Notes: generated by a model not told the origin, from the letters alone. Positions 9,493-18,719 are shown, numbered from the stretch's first letter. The stretch: 64,000 bases of DNA from Escherichia coli (GCF_003790525.1 NZ_CP033636.1); one strand, 5' to 3'. A program made the numbers and translations.

Positions 9493-11505
9493 TTAAGAAA
9501 GTATTTGATGAACTAGCTTACTGACTTCAATAGACAATAAAGAAGTATCATCAACTGTTACGAAAGTGTCCGTTTCAAAACCAATTATTTCATCAGTCTT
9601 AATACCAACACCAACGATTTCTATTCCATTACATTTAGCCTTTTCCATAACTTCGCCGATAGTAAATTCCGATTTATTCGGATAACCATCAGTTATAAGA
9701 AAAATTATTTTCCTATCGAATTGGCTGTCAAGTAACAGATCAACAGCTGCCATTAAAGCCGATCCCGTAGGGGTATAATAACCCTTACATCCAAGAGTGA
9801 ATTTCGATAGAGATTCCTCAACGCTTTGATCAAACGTTTTGATAATCTCAAATTCACTTTCCTTGAAGGGAAAGACTATATTGGAGACATGCATTTTTGA
9901 CAAACTTTCAGCGGCCATCGATAAAGCAAGATCTGACTTAATGGCATGAATATATCTTTCATCATTAGCCATTGACGCTGAAATATCACGAACTAATACG
10001 AGGCCAACATGCCCTCTATTTTTAGATTCGCTTTGAGCTCTGAAGACATCACGAACTCCCATTGGTGACAGAATTAATCGATTTCCATCGAAGGTAATTC
10101 CACGCTCATGAGTTTTGTTTCGGCCACGCATTTTAACCTGCTGTAAAACAGACAAGTCGCTACCGATTGAATGACTCAGAGACAAAGCCTCATTGTAAAC
10201 ATTCAAATCGATAAGGAGATCAGGGATATCCCATTCAGAAGCACCGAATTCGGCTTTCACGTCATCGGATACTTTTGATGCAATACCTTCAATCTCTTCA
10301 GCCAAAGCATCGTGATAATCTTCGCTATCCTCATCACTGCCAAGAAAGGCATCCAACAAATCTGCCAGTATCTCCCATTGAGCCGATGAAAAGTTACTTT
10401 CATCTTCAACGTTAGTCGAACTGGCTTCATCTGATTCACTCTCGGAAGGGTTAATCGCATCAGTATCGTCTTCAATAATGTTATCACCTGTGGGATTGCC
10501 ACCGGTGGGTTCATTATTTCCCTCGTTATCTTCAGCAAGTTCTGAAGGCTCAGAACATCCCTCTTGAGCAAGATCAGAGTTATCGGAAGTATCTGCCTGA
10601 CCTTCACTATCGTCCTCAGAATCATCCTCACGACTATCAGTCGACTCAAGCGATTTATCTTCTGATTCGGTATCGGTATCGGTATCGGTCTCGGATTCAT
10701 CATATGCCTCCTGCTCCTCCTGCTCTGTCTGCTGCTGTTGTTCCCTTGCCTCATCCCGCAGTCTCTCTAAAAGAGCCAGGGTCTTACGAGCAAGGGATTC
10801 ACAGCCCTGAGTATTTTCACAACCAAGAGCATCATGAAAAATTTCCTCAACATCAGAAATTACTGGAGAAAGTATCTTTTGGGCATAGTCAAAAAACGGA
10901 TCGAGTGTTTCTTTGTGACCTGCCTGCTGAAGGACTTTTACTCGCAATGAGTTAAGCAGATACCACTCAATAAATAGGACAGGATTTTCCGGACGAGAAG
11001 ATATATCAGGAGTCATCCTTCCGGCTTTAACCATCAGTGCGTAAGTGGCTGCAAGCCGCCGCTTTGCATCCGGATAATCGTTACCAACCTTCTCTTCCAT
11101 CTGTACATCATCGAACAGATTTATAAGCCCGGTAAGACGTTTTGCCCTGCTATAAGCTTTACGTTTCTCAGCGAGGCTCTCAAACTCTGCATTCATTCCG
11201 TCATCGAAGCGTGTAAACCCTTCAGATGACTTGAGAACACTATTAAAGGCGTCACTGTAAACCTCGCTGTCGGTATAGCGACCATGACCAGCTTCATGAC
11301 AGGTAAAACCTTCAATCAGACTGACAAAGTCATCATCGCTATAATCGCCGTTTGGTAAAACACAAACTTTATTTACAGGATCAAAATACGGTCCTTTGGT
11401 ATTGTCGTCTATTACAACTCTTACATCGCCTAAGCCGCTAATGACTTTTGCTATATTCTGTAAACGCTTAATATGGCGCGGTGATGATTTAAGATCTAAT
11501 TTCAT
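9493..11505 (-). CDS. CobT-like protein: N-terminal domain, long acidic low-complexity linker, C-terminal von Willebrand factor A (VWA) domain
   Basis: ORF track 670 aa; C-terminal VGLVLVRDISASM (DxSxS MIDAS motif) followed by VWA-like pattern; central ~120 aa stretch extremely rich in D/E/S/T (ESETDTDTDTESEDKSLESTDSREDDSEDDSEG...), as in aerobic cobaltochelatase CobT-type proteins. Confidence 0.65.
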   Translation of the reverse strand: MKLDLKSSPRHIKRLQNIAKVISGLGDVRVVIDDNTKGPYFDPVNKVCVLPNGDYSDDDFVSLIEGFTCHEAGHGRYTDSEVYSDAFNSVLKSSEGFTRFDDGMNAEFESLAEKRKAYSRAKRLTGLINLFDDVQMEEKVGNDYPDAKRRLAATYALMVKAGRMTPDISSRPENPVLFIEWYLLNSLRVKVLQQAGHKETLDPFFDYAQKILSPVISDVEEIFHDALGCENTQGCESLARKTLALLERLRDEAREQQQQTEQEEQEAYDESETDTDTDTESEDKSLESTDSREDDSEDDSEGQADTSDNSDLAQEGCSEPSELAEDNEGNNEPTGGNPTGDNIIEDDTDAINPSESESDEASSTNVEDESNFSSAQWEILADLLDAFLGSDEDSEDYHDALAEEIEGIASKVSDDVKAEFGASEWDIPDLLIDLNVYNEALSLSHSIGSDLSVLQQVKMRGRNKTHERGITFDGNRLILSPMGVRDVFRAQSESKNRGHVGLVLVRDISASMANDERYIHAIKSDLALSMAAESLSKMHVSNIVFPFKESEFEIIKTFDQSVEESLSKFTLGCKGYYTPTGSALMAAVDLLLDSQFDRKIIFLITDGYPNKSEFTIGEVMEKAKCNGIEIVGVGIKTDEIIGFETDTFVTVDDTSLLSIEVSKLVHQILS

Positions 11506-11520
11506 AGAATACCTCTTTAT

Positions 11521-11567
11521 AAAAAAGGGGTACTCACCCAGATGGTGAAGTACCCATCTGGGGTTTT
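11521..11567 (-). terminator. intergenic compound GC hairpin (putative terminator/attenuator)
   Basis: GGGTACTCACC / GGTGAAGTACCC and CCCAGATGG / CCATCTGGG inverted repeats; A6 on plus strand = U6 after hairpin on minus transcript, just upstream of next RBS. Confidence 0.4.
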
Positions 11568-11582
11568 TAATAAAGCAAACAG

Positions 11583-12710
11583 TTACCAGCCTTTGAGCTC
11601 GATATCAAAACCATTTTCAACATTGTCTTCCTGTTGCGAAACTGATTTCTCAGGTTCAGCTACAGGATCAGTGTTTGAAAACGTGCTGTTATTTATATCG
11701 TTCTCTACGACAGGTTCAACCTGGAACACATTTGTTGAATCTAAAATAGCTTCAATACCTGTGTTCTGTAGCGCGTTCGGTTCTGTTTGTGAGCTTTGAT
11801 TAAATGATCTGGTAATAGATTCCAACCAGTCAGTAACCTTTTGCTCTCCTGAAATAATACGCTTTAACATTGAAGCATCACTCATGAAATAAAACCACTG
11901 CTGTAACACCGCAACGTCGCGAGGTTCAGAAATGGCACCTTTAGGTAAATTATTCATTATGTGTTTTATAGCTTCTGCAAGTACTGCCGCCTCTTTATGT
12001 ATAAACATGAAGCTAATGATCTTATTTTGCATTTGCTTCAGTCGGTCAATAGTACTTGAGCGCAAATTGTTATTTTTGCTAATTTTTTCATAAACCTTCA
12101 TTGCTTCTTCTGCCAGATCTGTTATCAATTGTTCCTGATAGTAGTCCTGGGTTTCATCACCTTCAACGCTAATAGGCGTAAAAGGAATAAAGTGAGCAAT
12201 ATTAAATCTAAAGGATTTTATGAAATCATCTTTAGTTAATTTCAACTGATCAATCAAAGAAGACATTCTTGGGCTTCTATTTTTTTCAGCCTCAATATGC
12301 ATCTCATAATTGTCTACAACGTTTTGAATACCTGCCTGAAACTCTCGTTCAATCTCTTGGGCCCCTTCCAGAAACTCTTCCATACTGGATACTGGTAAAA
12401 TCCACATATTGCTATAGCGGATGCACAAGCGTGAGCAAAGAGTTGATATTCTGCTGGTAATCGTACTTTTGAAGCTAAGGGCTTTTATGTCAATCCAGCG
12501 TACTTCGCTTTTAGATACGCTTTTTTGATCCGTAATATCATCTCCATCATAAGACAAATCGATTTTATCGGTTCGACGCGATCCTTGACAGCCACTTATT
12601 TCAATTTTTGTTATAACTGCACCTTCCAGTAAATCTGGATATGATTTTGCAAAATTCTCAGAGATTTGTTTTGCAGATACTTTGTTAAGCATTGAAGTAT
12701 TTAAAGTCAT
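11583..12710 (-). CDS. hypothetical protein (~375 aa)
   Basis: ORF track gives 11583-12722, but the codon at 12722-12720 is TTG; the ATG at 12710-12708 with GGAG 7 nt upstream is a more plausible start. No motif recognised. Confidence 0.5.
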   Translation of the reverse strand: MTLNTSMLNKVSAKQISENFAKSYPDLLEGAVITKIEISGCQGSRRTDKIDLSYDGDDITDQKSVSKSEVRWIDIKALSFKSTITSRISTLCSRLCIRYSNMWILPVSSMEEFLEGAQEIEREFQAGIQNVVDNYEMHIEAEKNRSPRMSSLIDQLKLTKDDFIKSFRFNIAHFIPFTPISVEGDETQDYYQEQLITDLAEEAMKVYEKISKNNNLRSSTIDRLKQMQNKIISFMFIHKEAAVLAEAIKHIMNNLPKGAISEPRDVAVLQQWFYFMSDASMLKRIISGEQKVTDWLESITRSFNQSSQTEPNALQNTGIEAILDSTNVFQVEPVVENDINNSTFSNTDPVAEPEKSVSQQEDNVENGFDIELKGW

Positions 12711-12720
12711 GGGTTTCTCC

Positions 12721-12770
12721 AAAAAAAAGGGGAAACCCTCCCCAACGGGAAAGATTTCCCGATAGGGTTG
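12721..12770 (-). terminator. intergenic compound GC hairpin (putative intrinsic terminator)
   Basis: GGGGAAACCCTCCCC and CGGGAAAGATTTCCCG hairpins; A8 on plus strand = U8 following hairpin on minus transcript. Confidence 0.45.
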
Positions 12771-13078
12771 ATATTAAAGCTTCTCTGGTGAAATTAAAAG
12801 AATACCGGGAAACTCAGCAACAACATCATCATTGCCCATTGCTCCCTGATACATATAACCTTTTAATTCCATTTGTTTAATCAGACCTTCCATATTTATT
12901 TTACCATCATGATAAAACAATAAAGAATAGTCGTTATTCAGTTGCATAAGTCCAGTAAAATTAGTTCCGTTTTTTGCTATAGCAATGGTAGCAGCACCAT
13001 CCGTACTTAAAAACGCACTAAATTCAAGATGGGATAACTCTGAGATACAAATATCAGAGGTTTCATAACAAATCCCAT

Positions 13079-14137
13079 CTAACTCGACTTTTTTGCTGTG
13101 AAATACTCCAGCGATTTATCCTTGTCTTCGCCAAGAGAAAGATCTATAGCTTGAAGAACAAGATCGACCACATGTAAAGGTAAAGCAGAAGCAAAAGCTA
13201 TTTTGAAAGTGTCAAGAAGACTAAAGGTTTTTAACGTCATCGACGTGCCAACCCAAGCTACTAATTGACGAATATCCATCACACTGTCTTCTGTACCAGA
13301 GTCATTTACTGCAATCGCTACTCTTACGAACTTCTCAATGACCTGAAAAGGCAAAGAGCTATATCGTTTAGTAAGCACATTGGTTAAAGCAACTTTGTCG
13401 GGCTTCTCCATTTCAACTATCAAGAACCGCTTTATAAAAGCTGCATCTTGACGTTGAGAAGAAACGAACCGGCGAGCGCCTCCACTCATGTTTGTGTTTG
13501 CAGTACCAATAAATCGCGTGTAGCCATTAGCAGTTATAACCTCACCACCATTAGCACTGAGTGACCAGGGCTTACGTTCAATGGGCATGTGAAGTTTTGC
13601 TGCCGTATCAGGATCGATTTTGTCCACTTCATCCAGAAGAATGAGGTGACCATTACGAAATCCCGTTACCAAATCGCTGTGTACAAAACCTGTATTACCA
13701 CCATTAAGACTGCGCTCACCTTCAAGCTCATCAACTCGAATATTGCTGTTGATCTGCTTAATTGTCAGCGGCCAATTCATCATGTGGCTAATGTACATTA
13801 CCATTTCAGTCTTGCCAGAACCGGACTCACCTTTAAGACACACACTTAAATCTATATCCGGACTGATAAGCAGTTTAACCACTTGTTCAAGTATTCGGGG
13901 ATTTGGTATGTAGTCTTTGTTCAGCGGAGCTCGATACGAGGTTTTAGTTTTGAAAACAGGCACAGCCATCTTTGGATCCATTTCTGGAATACCAAAAAGG
14001 TCCTTTGCTAGAACTAAAAGATACTCACCTTTATCCACATAATGTTTTAACTTTATAACATCCGGGGAAAGAAGAGCTTCTAATTTTTCATAAGCATCAG
14101 AAGATGTTTCATTTAACTTCATAGCGGCATTAGACAT
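13079..14137 (-). CDS. AAA+ ATPase, MoxR/CobS-like
   Basis: ORF track 352 aa; Walker A GESGSGKTE, Walker B hhhhDE (LILLDEVDK), size and motif spacing as in CobS/MoxR-class ATPases; encoded in the same operon as the CobT-like VWA protein. Confidence 0.7.
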   Translation of the reverse strand: MSNAAMKLNETSSDAYEKLEALLSPDVIKLKHYVDKGEYLLVLAKDLFGIPEMDPKMAVPVFKTKTSYRAPLNKDYIPNPRILEQVVKLLISPDIDLSVCLKGESGSGKTEMVMYISHMMNWPLTIKQINSNIRVDELEGERSLNGGNTGFVHSDLVTGFRNGHLILLDEVDKIDPDTAAKLHMPIERKPWSLSANGGEVITANGYTRFIGTANTNMSGGARRFVSSQRQDAAFIKRFLIVEMEKPDKVALTNVLTKRYSSLPFQVIEKFVRVAIAVNDSGTEDSVMDIRQLVAWVGTSMTLKTFSLLDTFKIAFASALPLHVVDLVLQAIDLSLGEDKDKSLEYFTAKKSS

Positions 14138-14194
14138 TTTTAACTCCGGTAAAATGCAAACACCGCCCTCTGGCAGATGTTTGCCAGTGGCATT

Positions 14195-15172
14195 TTATTT
14201 GAGATTCATTTGGCAAATAGTTGCCATCAGTTTCCTGATTTGAGGCACATTATAACCAAGATGATTTCCCACTATTTCAAAAGCTTCAGACATGATCCAT
14301 TCAAAATGATTTTCGAATATTGGATTGATTTCTAACTTGCCAAAAGCGTTTCGTTTAGTTAACAGATCACATGAAACAAGCTCGTCAAACAACTCTAATG
14401 TGGATTTAAAAGCTTTTATGTAAACATCCATAATTTCCCTGTCAGTCCATTTAACAGCCAGTTTTTTTTCTGACATTAAATAATCCTGATCAAAGAAGAT
14501 GTCCCAGCCCATATCGTCATTGCAATCATGCAAAATGATTTCATCATCATTCCTGCATTCAGCTAATTTCGTGTTTTCACTAATCGAACGATGCGAATGA
14601 TAATAGAGCCATGATTTTAATTCCGCTCTAAATTCACATGCATCAAGTCCATGACATAAACAAGTGTATTCAAATGATTTTGACATATACCACCGTGTTT
14701 CAGCTTCTAAAAGTGGATTCACTGTGATATTACCATTGTCATCTTTGAAGAATAACTTTCTCCTCAACACTAGTTCTTTAATGATTTCCAAAGACTCTTC
14801 CATAGCGGATAGAAAAACAACATACACATCCTCAGGGGTCCATTCTATTACCAGACCACCCAAATCTGGGTTATATTCTTCAACCGTATATAGATAATCT
14901 GTTTCTGCTGCAAAATTAATTGTATGCAAAATCTGATTTTTAAGTAATTTGGATTTTTCATAAAGGTGATTTTCACGCCTTTCAGAATCATAATTTATCT
15001 CAGAAATGTTACTTTCTTCTGATTTAAAGTTTAATCCGGACGTGTAAGCATCATTTAAATGCTCTTTGGGTGAATCAACTATTTGCGTTATTTCATCTTC
15101 ATCTATATCGAGTATAGAAAAAAAACTAAGTTGATTACTACTTATTGCAGTAGCCCTAAATTTTTGTTTCAT
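14195..15172 (-). CDS. hypothetical protein (325 aa)
   Basis: ORF track; no motif recognised. Confidence 0.5.
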   Translation of the reverse strand: MKQKFRATAISSNQLSFFSILDIDEDEITQIVDSPKEHLNDAYTSGLNFKSEESNISEINYDSERRENHLYEKSKLLKNQILHTINFAAETDYLYTVEEYNPDLGGLVIEWTPEDVYVVFLSAMEESLEIIKELVLRRKLFFKDDNGNITVNPLLEAETRWYMSKSFEYTCLCHGLDACEFRAELKSWLYYHSHRSISENTKLAECRNDDEIILHDCNDDMGWDIFFDQDYLMSEKKLAVKWTDREIMDVYIKAFKSTLELFDELVSCDLLTKRNAFGKLEINPIFENHFEWIMSEAFEIVGNHLGYNVPQIRKLMATICQMNLK

Positions 15173-16934: not shown

Positions 16935-18719
16935 TTATTCTGTATAAACTGGAGAAATTCGAATATTAGCTGCTTCTTTTATCTTTTCTTCACTGCATTC
17001 TCTTAAAAAGAAAGAAGGGTCACCATACCACATTACAAAAAGTTGCTTTTCTGCACGCGTAAATCCAACATAAAGCAAACGTCTTTCTTCTTCTATTGCC
17101 TCCTCCCCAACTGATCTTTTACTTGGTATCTGATCCGCATTACAACTCATTATTATTACTTTATTCCACTCAAGACCCTTTGAACCATGCAAGGTTGATA
17201 GGACTACTTTCTCTGGGCTGTATTCCTCGTCCTTCTTCCTAGGGCCTAATGACATTGCAGCAGCACGATTGATCATATTCATCCAACCAGTCTTTTCTGC
17301 CCACTGTTTACAAGTGTCTAAAGCAATTTTTGTTAAGGTTGCTGTACCTTTATTACTCCTCATCTTGATTGACGACGATTCCATCCATTTCGTAAGGTTG
17401 GCGAAACGTTTTGCTATCTCAACTTTATCAGTACTTTCCTGGGTAAAGCGCACGAAGTTTGAATGTAATGTTTTTGTTTCGAGAGAACTGTCCTCCGGGA
17501 TGGCAAGGTCGCCAAAAGTAACTTTTCTTCCTCTCATACTCAATGCCACATCATCCAAAACTGATTCCTGTTCTCCAAACAATGCCAATACTCTCTTCAT
17601 TAAGCGAGGATCATTTGATTGTCGGAAAAAGGCCATAAGGCTTAACACATCGCTTGTTTCTTTTTCATCCCAGAATGATTTACCTCCGTAACGAATTACT
17701 GGCTGTTCGATCAAACTTTCTAGCTCATCCAAGTGAGCATTATTGCGGCTTAGAATTGCCCATCCATGTGGATCCTGATTTATAAGGCTTAAAATACCCT
17801 GTATCTGTTCCTCCATATCTACATATGAACGAAAAGTGACCTTTCCTCCTCCCTTTTTTGCCGAGCGTAACTCTTTGGCATAACGGTAAACATTCTTTCC
17901 TATCAGTGCTCCGGCCACCTCTAAAATTTCAGGTTCACACCTAAAGCATGTGTTTAAGTAAAATATGTTAGGTCTGAAGTGTTTTTCAAACTGTTGAAAT
18001 ATTTTGACTCCTCCTGAGGATCTGAAGGAGTAGATGGCCTGATCATCGTCTCCAACTATACTCGTATAGACTCCAGCTCTTGTATGCAATGCTATCCATG
18101 AGAATTGTATAGAGTCAGTATCCTGAACTTCGTCTACTATCAAATGTGTCAAATCTAACGTGCGCATTTTTCCCGAATGCATTTGACCGACAACAAATTT
18201 TGAAAGAGCATTGAGGTCCGCCACATGGTCTTTCTGGCATAACGCCTGATAGGTATTAAATAAATGGATCTGTTGTCTGTTATGCCGAACTGAAATCACA
18301 TCCGTATCCATTTCTCTGCCGATAGCATCAATAACGAATTCAGCTTCAGCAAACTTCATCGTTACACCGGATTCTTTCAAAGCCCGGTGAATGACAGATC
18401 TCTGTGCTGGCCCTATCAACATCTTTCCCGGCCAGCGAATCATGTCCAGTTGCTTCTTAACGAGTCCGTGAAAAGTATCCACCAGCACCCGGTCAAGATC
18501 CTTCTTGCTCAATCGCTTTTGTAACTTTGCTGCAAGTGCGTTTGTTGCAGCGCGAGTAAAGGTCACCATCCCGATTCTTGCATATGGATACTTTTTGAGA
18601 ATCGATATAACCGCTTCTATCATGGTGAATGATTTGCCTGATCCAGGCGCTGCTATCACCATATTGTTTGCGCTAGCATTCTCGATAACAGGTCTTTGCT
18701 CTTCTGTTGGCTTACCCAT
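16935..18719 (-). CDS. UvrD/Rep-family (SF1) DNA helicase
   Basis: ORF track 594 aa; N-terminal Walker A AAPGSGKSFT, VTFTRAA motif, C-terminal GSKGLEW and YVGFTRAEKQLFV motifs characteristic of UvrD-like helicases. Confidence 0.75.
   Translation of the reverse strand: MGKPTEEQRPVIENASANNMVIAAPGSGKSFTMIEAVISILKKYPYARIGMVTFTRAATNALAAKLQKRLSKKDLDRVLVDTFHGLVKKQLDMIRWPGKMLIGPAQRSVIHRALKESGVTMKFAEAEFVIDAIGREMDTDVISVRHNRQQIHLFNTYQALCQKDHVADLNALSKFVVGQMHSGKMRTLDLTHLIVDEVQDTDSIQFSWIALHTRAGVYTSIVGDDDQAIYSFRSSGGVKIFQQFEKHFRPNIFYLNTCFRCEPEILEVAGALIGKNVYRYAKELRSAKKGGGKVTFRSYVDMEEQIQGILSLINQDPHGWAILSRNNAHLDELESLIEQPVIRYGGKSFWDEKETSDVLSLMAFFRQSNDPRLMKRVLALFGEQESVLDDVALSMRGRKVTFGDLAIPEDSSLETKTLHSNFVRFTQESTDKVEIAKRFANLTKWMESSSIKMRSNKGTATLTKIALDTCKQWAEKTGWMNMINRAAAMSLGPRKKDEEYSPEKVVLSTLHGSKGLEWNKVIIMSCNADQIPSKRSVGEEAIEEERRLLYVGFTRAEKQLFVMWYGDPSFFLRECSEEKIKEAANIRISPVYTE

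What the first reader, a model, noticed from the sequence alone, without database searches (positions are those of the whole stretch)
12776..13078. About 300-bp gap in a dense operon containing an open frame without a canonical start
Between the AAA+ gene stop (13079) and the next annotated gene lies a minus-strand frame open for roughly 100 codons (…ELDGICYETSDICISELSHLEFSAFLSTDGAATIAIAKNG…LISPEKL) ending at 12776. Its only ATG gives 57 aa, below the ORF-track cut-off. It may be a small gene with a non-canonical start, a gene that begins by frameshifting from the AAA+ frame, or a decayed gene.
Basis: seen in the sequence. Interest (0 to 1): 0.3.

Follow-up and report, generated by a model that had tools for sequence, protein, structure and literature searches.

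The report
Hidden frameshift extends plasmid AAA+ ATPase
The "gap" after the AAA+ ATPase gene of this IncHI2 resistance plasmid is most likely the second half of that gene, reached when some ribosomes slip back one base at a conserved A-AAA-AAG site, so one gene would make a 352-aa and a 454-aa protein; current annotation misses this.

Summary
On the minus strand a 113-codon frame is open from 13115 to 12777, with its stop at 12776-12774. Its only canonical start is an ATG that gives 57 aa.

The last sense codons of the CobS-like AAA_5 ATPase gene read GC A_AAA_AAG TCG AGT TAG. That is the dnaX-type -1 slippery heptamer (13094-13088), in the correct phase, and it opens exactly into this frame.

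- A GGAG lies 11 nt upstream and a hairpin starts 7 nt downstream, as in dnaX.
- Nine diverged lineages of the same gene block keep A_AAA_AAG; a tenth has A_AAA_AAT.
- CAAAAAAG is the longest invariant nucleotide run in the AAA+ gene.
- The first usable start codon in the extension frame wanders between codon 5 and codon 100.
- A Buttiauxella lineage encodes ATPase and extension as one 456-aa ORF, colinear with the predicted shifted product.
- Three lineages lack both the extension and the heptamer.
- The extension is under purifying selection (dN/dS 0.2-0.3) and models as a compact domain that starts at the junction.

Best reading: programmed -1 ribosomal frameshifting that makes short and long ATPase isoforms. 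It is a new member of a known mechanism, is unannotated, and has not been tested experimentally.

The parts
13079..14137 (-). Zero-frame ORF of the CobS-like AAA_5 ATPase (352 aa; short isoform). It ends ...LEYFTAKKSS* with TAG at 13081-13079.
   Evidence: ORF list. Pfam AAA_5 E=5e-28. Nearest solved relatives are cobaltochelatase CobS chains, E=1e-14. Annotated 'AAA family ATPase' WP_000063335.
13106..13109 (-). Shine-Dalgarno-like GGAG, 11 nt upstream of the heptamer (candidate 5' frameshift stimulator).
   Evidence: Read in the sequence. Predicted anti-SD duplex is -5.9 kcal/mol, as strong as the SDs of the operon's real genes (-5.9 to -7.1). A GGAG/AGGAG/GAGGA is present 10-11 nt upstream in 9 of 10 lineages.
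13088..13094 (-). Slippery heptamer A_AAA_AAG in X_XXY_YYZ phase of the ATPase frame: the proposed -1 shift site.
   Evidence: Invariant in 9 lineages (A_AAA_AAT in a tenth). CAAAAAAG is the longest invariant nucleotide run in the 1068-nt gene alignment, while only 5% of third codon positions are invariant.
13027..13080 (-). Hairpin beginning 7 nt after the heptamer (base stem AGAUGGGAU/AUCCCAUCU plus an upper stem): candidate 3' stimulator.
   Evidence: Single-sequence folds. The alifold consensus over 7 lineages has 13 pairs, 5 of them with compensatory changes. 89% of cells are paired against 38-55% when the partner is slid, and 1/500 shuffles reach the number of covarying pairs. A different hairpin sits at the same spacing in L027; none is convincing in L022/L030.
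12774..13094 (-). -1-frame extension: 106 codons from the heptamer (KKVELDG...SPEKL) plus stop TAA at 12776-12774. It adds 104 residues after K350 to give a 454-aa long isoform.
   Evidence: Translation. Homologous and open from the heptamer in all extension-bearing lineages. dN/dS is 0.2-0.3. AlphaFold model pLDDT is 85.6, with beta-strands beginning at the junction.
12774..12947 (-). The 57-aa ATG ORF currently annotated in IncHI2 plasmids. It is probably an annotation artefact covering only the C-terminal half of the domain.
   Evidence: Weak SD (-2.4 kcal/mol). The ATG is lost (M50I) in pR18.1477_259k with the frame intact. The model shows it would omit the first six of the domain's eight strands.
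12721..12760 (-). Terminator-like double hairpin plus T8 between the extension stop and the DUF3150 start (context, not part of the shift cassette).
   Evidence: A related hairpin occurs upstream of DUF3150 in all lineages, including those without the extension.
9493..12722 (-). Downstream partner genes of the module: DUF3150 protein (11583-12722) and a VWA/CobT-like protein (9493-11505).
   Evidence: Pfam DUF3150 E=2e-23 and VWA E=2e-7. PHROG CobT-like hit. Synteny is conserved in every lineage.

Best explanation
The ATPase gene and the 'gap' are one recoded gene.

Inferred mechanism. Most ribosomes translating the CobS-like AAA+ gene terminate at TAG 13081-13079 and make the 352-aa protein. 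A fraction slip back one nucleotide while the single tRNA-Lys decodes A_AAA_AAG (13094-13088). An SD-like GGAG 11 nt upstream and a hairpin 7 nt downstream would promote the slip, as in E. coli dnaX. These ribosomes continue in the -1 frame for 104 more codons. The result is a 454-aa isoform carrying a C-terminal beta-rich domain of unknown fold.

Shown by sequence analysis: the anatomy of the cassette, its conservation, the fused ortholog and the selection on the frame.

Inferred, not shown: that shifting occurs and how efficient it is. The consequence is also inferred by analogy with dnaX tau/gamma and with Mg-chelatase chlD frameshifting: that the AAA+ ring working with the neighbouring DUF3150 and VWA (CobT-like) proteins contains a set ratio of short and long subunits.
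For: - The heptamer is in X_XXY_YYZ phase and the -1 frame opens exactly there.
- Only 6 in-phase A_AAA_AAG occur in about 17,200 codons of long ORFs in the window. This is the only one near a stop, and the only one followed by a long -1 frame: 106 codons against 3-39 for the others.
- Nine lineages with 51-100% ATPase identity keep A_AAA_AAG. Other invariant Lys columns mix AAA and AAG about 50:50. Only 2 of 96 invariant amino-acid columns keep one codon, and CAAAAAAG is the longest invariant run in the gene.
- The first canonical start in the extension frame falls at codon 50, 17, 17, 8, 20, 40, 100, 12, 29 or 5, with weak SDs. The SD-like element before the heptamer is as strong as real SDs in 9/10 lineages.
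- Extension codons 3-19, upstream of most candidate starts, are as conserved as the rest: BLOSUM 2.0-2.1 per site, against 0.3 or less with 12-16 stops in the other frames.
- Buttiauxella plasmids encode a single 456-aa ORF, found in at least 24 contigs. It is colinear with the predicted product across the junction (TAAR-VTIEN vs TAKK-VTIDG) and has no heptamer.
- Three lineages lacking the extension also lack the heptamer and the KK tail.
- The hairpin is conserved with compensatory changes in 7 lineages.
- The extension has dN/dS 0.2-0.3. It models as one domain whose first strands are the residues right after the slip site, with no low-confidence linker.
- The frame is intact in 1395 of 1398 plasmid records.
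- A_AAA_AAG is the most shift-prone heptamer in E. coli and is the dnaX site, which has the same two stimulators (PMC5009743, PMC3711429).
Against: - There is no direct evidence of translation or of a 454-aa product. The one IncHI1 proteomics study searched a database that (by my gene-number mapping) lacked the small ORF.
- The lineages are related, so conservation counts are not independent events.
- Two lineages (L022, L030) show no convincing 3' hairpin, and L030 lacks the SD-like element.
- The Photorhabdus lineage has A_AAA_AAT, which is much less slippery in E. coli.
- L027 has an ATG overlapping the stop (TAATG) in the extension frame, so coupling could also work there.
- IncHI1 has a GTG at codon 17 with a weak AAGG upstream.
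- An IncHI2 variant in 13 contigs carries a 2-nt deletion that breaks the shifted frame after codon 16, so the long isoform is not indispensable.
- dN/dS over the first 17 codons alone is about 0.8 in several pairs; the stretch is short and overlaps the RNA structure.
Confidence: 0.8

Rival explanations
1. The extension is an independent small gene, translated from its own start (GTG/TTG/ATG, or a non-canonical codon) or by termination-reinitiation coupled to the ATPase stop. Under this reading the conserved heptamer is a coincidence of a conserved Lys-Lys tail.
For: - PGAP calls an 89-aa GTG ORF in IncHI1 and a 57-aa ATG ORF in IncHI2.
- L027 has ATG overlapping the stop as TAATG.
- In the 2-nt-deletion clone the rest of the domain is joined to an ATG directly after the ATPase stop, so the domain might work in trans.
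- Domains that occur both fused and split are common.
Against: - Start positions are not conserved (codons 5 to 100). L026 has none before codon 100 and L010 has no ATG at all.
- Anti-SD complementarity before candidate starts is +0.6 to -3.5 kcal/mol for first starts, against -5.9 to -7.1 for real genes of the operon.
- Residues upstream of those starts are conserved and form the first two strands of the domain.
- Synonymous-site invariance of A_AAA_AAG is unexplained by a Lys-Lys tail.
- No conserved near-cognate start lies after the stop.
Confidence: 0.1
2. The frame change happens at the RNA level. RNA polymerase slips on the A6 run and makes mRNAs with one extra A (or two fewer), and standard translation of those mRNAs yields the same long isoform.
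For: A/T runs can support transcriptional realignment. Mg-chelatase cassettes shift on A7-A11 runs, with efficiency rising with run length (PMC3711429). Database fragments P0008 (A4) and P0014 (A7) encode in-frame fusions.
Against: - The run is only 6 A, whereas documented bacterial slippage needs about 9 (PMC5009743).
- The final G of the heptamer is conserved in 9/10 lineages, which matters for tRNA-Lys re-pairing but not for polymerase slippage.
- The SD-like element and the spaced hairpin are ribosomal stimulators.
- P0014 carries a second homopolymer error, so these fragments look like sequencing errors.
Confidence: 0.06
3. The frame is a decaying remnant or a sequencing or assembly frameshift of a once-fused gene, with no current function.
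For: A fused version exists in Buttiauxella. The break lies in a homopolymer, a typical site for indels.
Against: - The identical arrangement occurs in 1115 plasmids at 99% identity or more, and in nine deeply diverged lineages.
- dN/dS is 0.2-0.3 and there are no stops in 102-117 codons.
- A decayed gene would not keep an in-phase slippery heptamer as the most conserved string of the gene.
Confidence: 0.02

Closest known systems
E. coli dnaX (tau/gamma) programmed -1 frameshift cassette
   Same: It uses the same heptamer A_AAA_AAG, decoded by the single tRNA-Lys of Enterobacterales, with an SD-like element about 10-11 nt upstream and a stem-loop 6-7 nt downstream. The gene is also an AAA+ ATPase, and the outcome is two isoforms sharing the ATPase core (PMC3711429, PMC5009743, PMC4344849).
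   Different: In E. coli dnaX the shift truncates the protein: gamma is the shifted product and stops one codon later. Here the shift bypasses a nearby stop and lengthens the protein by a whole domain. The review mentions this 'reversed' architecture for dnaX of a few bacteria. The gene family, the hairpin sequence and the location on a plasmid all differ.
Programmed -1 frameshifting in magnesium/cobalt chelatase chlD (ChlI/ChlD, CobS/CobT relatives)
   Same: The shifted gene belongs to the same AAA+ clade: the nearest solved relatives here are CobS. In both cases one gene yields a short AAA+ subunit and a longer one, annotation shows two adjacent genes, and naturally fused homologs exist (PMC3711429, PMC9227772).
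   Different: In chlD the added part is the linker plus the VWA domain, and the shift sites are long A runs (A7-A11). Here the VWA protein is a separate gene two ORFs downstream, the added part is a 104-aa domain with no detectable relatives, and the site is a classical heptamer with stimulators. No cobN/chlH partner was annotated in the roughly 10-kb blocks examined, so a chelatase role is unlikely.
Phage tail assembly chaperones G/GT and IS3-family OrfAB transposases
   Same: Both are mobile-element genes in which a -1 shift near the end of ORF1 fuses it to an overlapping ORF2 that lacks its own efficient start. Both are routinely mis-annotated as two genes (my own knowledge; the review PMC5009743 names the IS911 frameshift stimulatory structure).
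   Different: The proteins and roles are unrelated. Those families are recognised by annotation pipelines; this one is not.

Membership tests
dnaX-type programmed -1 ribosomal frameshift cassette | X_XXY_YYZ slippery heptamer in the zero-frame phase | tested here: met
   GC A_AAA_AAG at 13094-13088. The phase was checked in all lineages by script assertion.
dnaX-type programmed -1 ribosomal frameshift cassette | The -1 frame is open from the heptamer and encodes a conserved polypeptide under purifying selection | tested here: met
   102-117 open codons in 10 lineages. dN/dS is 0.2-0.3, and only the extension frame is conserved.
dnaX-type programmed -1 ribosomal frameshift cassette | The heptamer is conserved beyond what the encoded amino acids require | tested here: met
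   It is the longest invariant run in the gene. Third positions are 5% invariant elsewhere, and other invariant Lys codons mix AAA and AAG. One lineage has AAT.
dnaX-type programmed -1 ribosomal frameshift cassette | 5' Shine-Dalgarno-like stimulator about 10-14 nt upstream | tested here: met
   GGAG/AGGAG/GAGGA lies 10-11 nt upstream in 9/10 lineages, with a duplex of -5.9 to -7.3 kcal/mol. Its function was not tested.
dnaX-type programmed -1 ribosomal frameshift cassette | 3' stem-loop or pseudoknot 5-9 nt downstream | tested here: inconclusive
   It is present with a 6-8-nt spacer in 8/10 lineages, and covariation support is moderate. It is absent or weak in L022/L030. The window's own fold has z = -1.9 to -2.0.
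dnaX-type programmed -1 ribosomal frameshift cassette | A trans-frame protein is actually produced | not testable with these tools
   This needs a western blot, mass spectrometry or ribosome profiling. Indirect support comes from the natural in-frame fusion P0029, which is colinear across the junction.
AAA_5 / CobS-like (MoxR-clade) AAA+ ATPase | AAA_5 domain with a Walker A motif and similarity to CobS | tested here: met
   Pfam PF07728 E=5e-28. GESGSGKT is invariant. PDB CobS E=1e-14 over 273 profile positions (48-320). PHROG 'porphyrin biosynthesis' E=2.5e-30.
Aerobic cobaltochelatase CobNST (functional membership) | Operates with a CobN catalytic subunit in a cobalamin pathway | not tested
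   No cobN-like gene appears among the genes annotated in the roughly 10-kb blocks viewed. The neighbours are TrhI helicase, DUF3150, VWA and a toprim primase-like protein. I did not search the whole plasmid.
Independent small protein-coding gene | A conserved start codon with a ribosome-binding site | tested here: not met
   Start positions are scattered from codon 5 to codon 100, and SD duplexes before first starts are +0.6 to -3.5 kcal/mol.
Transcriptional slippage (programmed transcriptional realignment) | A homopolymer of about 9 or more A/T | tested here: not met
   The run is A6 in all lineages. The length requirement is taken from PMC5009743.
chlD-type chelatase frameshift | The frameshift adds the VWA-containing half of the medium subunit | tested here: not met
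   The extension has no Pfam or PHROG hit. VWA is a separate gene at 9493-11505.

The most novel reading that the evidence does not exclude
IncHI-family plasmids use a dnaX-like frameshift to fix the ratio of short and long subunits in a CobS-like AAA+ ring. With the DUF3150 and VWA/CobT-like partners (and the adjacent TrhI helicase and primase-like genes), this ring would form a previously unrecognised remodelling machine for plasmid transfer or establishment. The 104-aa domain, which has no detectable fold relative, would be the adaptor that recruits a partner or substrate. The function of this MOBH-element 'cobS/cobT' module is, to my knowledge, uncharacterised, so the shift ratio would be a handle for studying it.
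Probability: 0.3. Interest if true: 0.7.

Novelty: new member of a known kind. Interest (0 to 1): 0.62.

Why it matters
IncHI1 and IncHI2 plasmids are major vehicles of multidrug resistance, including typhoid MDR and mcr-1. This block sits in the conserved backbone next to Tra2, in about 1,400 sequenced plasmids.

If the frameshift is real, every one of those records mis-annotates the locus: a truncated 57- or 89-aa 'hypothetical protein', and no long ATPase isoform. Proteomic and functional screens built on that annotation cannot see the product.

It would also add a clean, naturally varied example to the short list of bacterial non-transposon, non-phage -1 frameshifts. The natural variants are the shifted, fused and absent forms, plus an AAT variant. 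Like dnaX and chlD, it falls in an AAA+ oligomer, which supports the idea that recoding is a recurrent way to set subunit stoichiometry in such rings. The variants give ready-made controls for experiments.

Tried and rejected
- **Extension homologs.** Word-indexed and exhaustive protein searches with the extension found only 8 and 13 hits and no annotated family. Pfam and PHROGs gave nothing for it.
- **Genome-wide locus scan.** A genome-contig scan with the ATPase alignment returned a single locus identical in type to IncHI1B.
- **Rfam.** Nothing was found above noise for 12600-13200.
- **Literature.** Searches for IncHI plus frameshifting, DUF3150, and cobS in SXT/R391 found no description of this recoding or of the module's function.
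- **Proteomics.** I hoped the IncHI1 proteomics paper (PMC5390554) would show peptides from the extension. By gene numbering the small ORF was not in their search database, so the study is uninformative on this point; it does list the ATPase and its neighbours as detected.
- **Fused fragments.** P0008 and P0014 were rejected as evidence for RNA slippage, because P0014 has other homopolymer errors.
- **pYSP8-1.** The distant tblastn hit H120 was rejected because the assembly is riddled with fragmentary genes.
- **Zero-frame mini-ORF.** The ORF after the stop (MGFVMKPLIFV...) was rejected as a gene. Its ATG is a by-product of the conserved GAUGGG, and it is interrupted after 2 codons in L016.

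Full report
**What the window is.** The region is backbone of an IncHI2 conjugative plasmid. 1115 PLSDB plasmids match 12500-14200 at 99% identity or more, for example pSTM6-275. On the minus strand the conserved block runs in this order:
- trhI helicase (16935-18719);
- three hypothetical genes;
- an AAA_5 ATPase (13079-14137);
- the 'gap';
- a DUF3150 protein (11583-12722);
- a VWA protein (9493-11505);
- a 73-aa ORF;
- a toprim/primase-like protein.

The ATPase is CobS-like. Its nearest solved relatives are cobaltochelatase CobS chains (E=1e-14).

**Checking the observation.** Relative to the ATPase frame, the -1 frame is open for 113 codons (13115-12777) and stops at 12776-12774. The other two frames are full of stops. 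The only canonical start gives the 57-aa ORF at 12774-12947, which is what NCBI's PGAP annotation pipeline annotates in IncHI2 plasmids.

The ATPase ends ...GAG TAT TTC ACA GCA AAA AAG TCG AGT TAG.
- The string A_AAA_AAG (13094-13088) is in X_XXY_YYZ phase. It is the heptamer used by E. coli dnaX, and the most shift-prone one in E. coli (PMC5009743, PMC3711429).
- A -1 slip there reads AAA AAA GTC GAG TTA GAT GGG..., which is KKVELDG..., exactly the open frame.
- GGAG (13109-13106) lies 11 nt upstream.
- A hairpin (13080-13027) begins 7 nt downstream.
- This is the dnaX layout: an SD-like element upstream, the heptamer, and a stem-loop downstream.
- Among about 17,200 codons of long ORFs in the window there are six in-phase A_AAA_AAG. 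Only this one is next to a stop, and only this one is followed by a long -1 frame: 106 codons, against 3-39 for the others.

**Comparative evidence.** I assembled 14 lineages of the syntenic block from four routes:
- PLSDB;
- an exhaustive protein search with the extension;
- a protein search with the ATPase alignment;
- contig look-ups.

ATPase identity to the window ranges from 49% to 100%. The lineages fall into four groups.

| Group | Lineages | Junction |
|---|---|---|
| Extension in -1 frame, A_AAA_AAG | IncHI2, IncHI1 pHCM1, IncHI1B-type, L008, L010, L016, L022, L030, L027 | [GT]C A_AAA_AAG; stop follows immediately (six lineages) or 1-2 codons later |
| Extension in -1 frame, variant heptamer | Photorhabdus tasmaniensis (L026) | A_AAA_AAT |
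| Extension fused in frame | Buttiauxella (P0029, 456 aa, at least 24 contigs) | ACA GCA GCT AGG GTG ACG ATT; no heptamer |
| No extension | L024, L028, L029 | Ends SISQL(K)*; 92-nt spacer to DUF3150; no heptamer, no Lys-Lys tail |

Further points on these groups:
- The -1 frame is open from the heptamer for 102-117 codons in all ten extension-bearing unfused lineages.
- The Buttiauxella protein aligns with the predicted shifted product straight through the junction (TAAR-VTIENQVY vs TAKK-VTIDGVSY). BLASTP covers residues 1-450, and the extension alone matches the extension profile colinearly (hhalign E=7e-5).
- No trace of the extension was found within 3.5 kb in the three lineages that lack it.
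- Heptamer and out-of-frame extension therefore co-occur without exception.

**Selection on the nucleotide string.** In the codon alignment of ten ATPase genes, only 2 of 96 invariant, degenerate amino-acid columns keep the same codon in every lineage.
- The five other invariant Lys columns mix AAA and AAG roughly equally.
- Only 4-5% of third positions are invariant.
- Yet the third base of the Ala/Ser codon, the AAA, and (in 9/10) the AAG of the heptamer never change.
- CAAAAAAG is the longest invariant run in the whole 1068-nt alignment, although it lies in the poorly conserved C-terminal tail.

**The extension is translated from the slip site, not from an internal start.** The first ATG/GTG/TTG in the extension frame falls at codon 50, 17, 17, 8, 20, 40, 100, 12, 29 or 5 in the ten lineages.
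- Anti-SD complementarity before these first starts is +0.6 to -3.5 kcal/mol. Real genes of the operon score -5.9 to -7.1.
- The element before the heptamer scores -5.9 to -7.3 in 9/10 lineages.
- Extension codons 3-19 score BLOSUM62 2.0-2.1 per site with no stops, as good as the rest of the domain (1.66). The other two frames score 0.3 or less, with 12-16 stops.
- Whole-extension dN/dS is 0.19-0.32.
- An AlphaFold model of the extension (11 sequences) has pLDDT 85.6 and pTM 0.77. Its first two strands are the residues directly after Lys-Lys.
- The full 454-aa product models at pLDDT 80 with no disordered linker at the junction.
- The annotated 57-aa ORF would contain only the last part of this domain.
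- One IncHI2 plasmid has lost even that ATG (M50I) while keeping the frame.

**RNA structure.**
- In the seven closest lineages a hairpin with base stem (A/U)GAUGGG...C(C/U)CAUC(U/A) starts 8 nt after the heptamer.
- RNAalifold gives 13 pairs, 5 of them with compensatory changes.
- 89% of cells pair, against 38-55% when the partner is slid. One of 500 shuffles reaches the observed number of covarying pairs.
- L027 has a different hairpin at a 6-nt spacing.
- L022 and L030 have none that is convincing.
- The 3' stimulator is therefore supported but not universal. The arms also encode conserved residues (DG, SHL), which confounds the test.

**Mechanism proposed.** This is tandem (or P-site) -1 slippage of tRNA-Lys on A_AAA_AAG, stimulated by the anti-SD interaction and the hairpin. 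In six lineages the stop codon directly following the heptamer is probably a further stimulus, as a slow-to-decode A-site codon. Either slippage route gives the same ...TAKK-V... product. The result is a short (352 aa) and a long (454 aa) isoform of one AAA+ subunit. That shifting occurs, and its efficiency, are inferred.

**Function.** The function of the extension is unknown.
- No family or fold match was found.
- By analogy with dnaX tau/gamma and with chlD frameshifting in the related chelatase AAA+ family, the most economical idea is that the shift ratio sets how many subunits of the ring carry the extra domain. That domain could contact the DUF3150 or VWA partner, or a substrate.
- The module is expressed. 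A proteomic study of IncHI1 plasmids lists the ATPase and neighbouring gene products as detected at 24 °C (PMC5390554, Table S3).
- By my mapping of their gene numbers to the RefSeq annotation of pB71, the small ORF was not in their search database, so that study cannot speak to the long isoform.

**Caveats.**
- There is no experimental evidence.
- The lineages are phylogenetically related.
- A_AAA_AAT in Photorhabdus would be a poor site in E. coli.
- L027 could also use TAATG coupling, and IncHI1 has a GTG at codon 17.
- An IncHI2 variant found in 13 contigs carries a 2-nt deletion that breaks the shifted frame after codon 16. By chance the deletion joins the rest of the domain to an ATG right after the ATPase stop. 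The long isoform is therefore not essential for plasmid survival, and the domain may work in trans.
- Transcriptional slippage on A6 cannot be excluded, but it is unlikely given the short run, the conserved G and the ribosomal stimulators.

**Novelty.** The mechanism is textbook; the case appears to be new.
- RefSeq annotation as of 2026 still shows an ATP-binding protein plus a hypothetical protein.
- The recoding review and the GeneTack survey do not mention it.
- Full-text searches combining IncHI terms with frameshifting found nothing.
- I rate it a new member of a known kind. Interest is moderate to high because of the clinical importance and number of the plasmids affected, the quality of the natural controls, and the parallel with two other recoded AAA+ oligomers.

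Noticed in passing
window 12721-12770 (-); also upstream of the DUF3150 gene in L002, L003, L022, L024, L027, L028, L029: A conserved structured intergenic element lies between the extension stop and the DUF3150 start. It consists of two hairpins, CGGGAAAnnTTTCCCG and GGGGAnnnTTTCCCC, the second followed by T8 in IncHI2 (terminator-like). A hairpin of the same GGGAAA...TTTCCC kind is present in every lineage, including those without the extension, with sequence changes that keep the pairing. It could be an attenuator, a processing site or a protein-binding site that sets DUF3150/VWA expression.
   Followed up: partly
L031/L032 (Logan ERR1715026, ERR1714980; 13 contigs), equivalent to window ~13040: An IncHI2 variant with a 2-nt deletion (GTATCTCAG to GTCTCAG). 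It interrupts the shifted frame after extension codon 16 and fuses the remaining 88 codons to an ATG of the zero-frame mini-ORF directly after the ATPase stop (protein P0001, 96 aa). This is a natural 'split' allele that keeps the heptamer.
   Followed up: yes
L006 (pR18.1477_259k, NZ_CP100737.1), equivalent to window 12945-12947: The only ATG of the extension frame is mutated to ATA (M50I) with the frame otherwise intact. PGAP then annotates no gene at all in the 370-nt interval.
   Followed up: yes
window 9493-11505 (-) and homologs in L008, L010, L018-L021, L027: The VWA/CobT-like protein carries a long acidic, Ser/Thr/Asp/Glu-rich low-complexity linker. Its length varies widely between lineages, and even between near-identical Buttiauxella contigs (593 to 727 aa).
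   Followed up: no
window 16935-18719 (-), trhI: A second in-phase A_AAA_AAG lies at codon 286 of trhI and is followed by a 39-codon open -1 frame. It is probably chance (one of six such heptamers in the window), and I did not check whether it is conserved.
   Followed up: no
L005 (pYSP8-1, NZ_CP037911.1): This plasmid record has the whole block broken into short fragmentary ORFs (an 85-aa 'AAA family ATPase' and many 60-90-aa hypotheticals). That is typical of an uncorrected long-read assembly, so it should not be used for frame analysis.
   Followed up: partly
P0008 and P0014 (Logan/ENA fragments): These database protein fragments encode the ATPase tail fused in frame to the extension through A4 or A7 versions of the A6 run. 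P0014 has a second homopolymer indel, so they look like read errors, but transcript-derived slippage was not excluded.
   Followed up: partly
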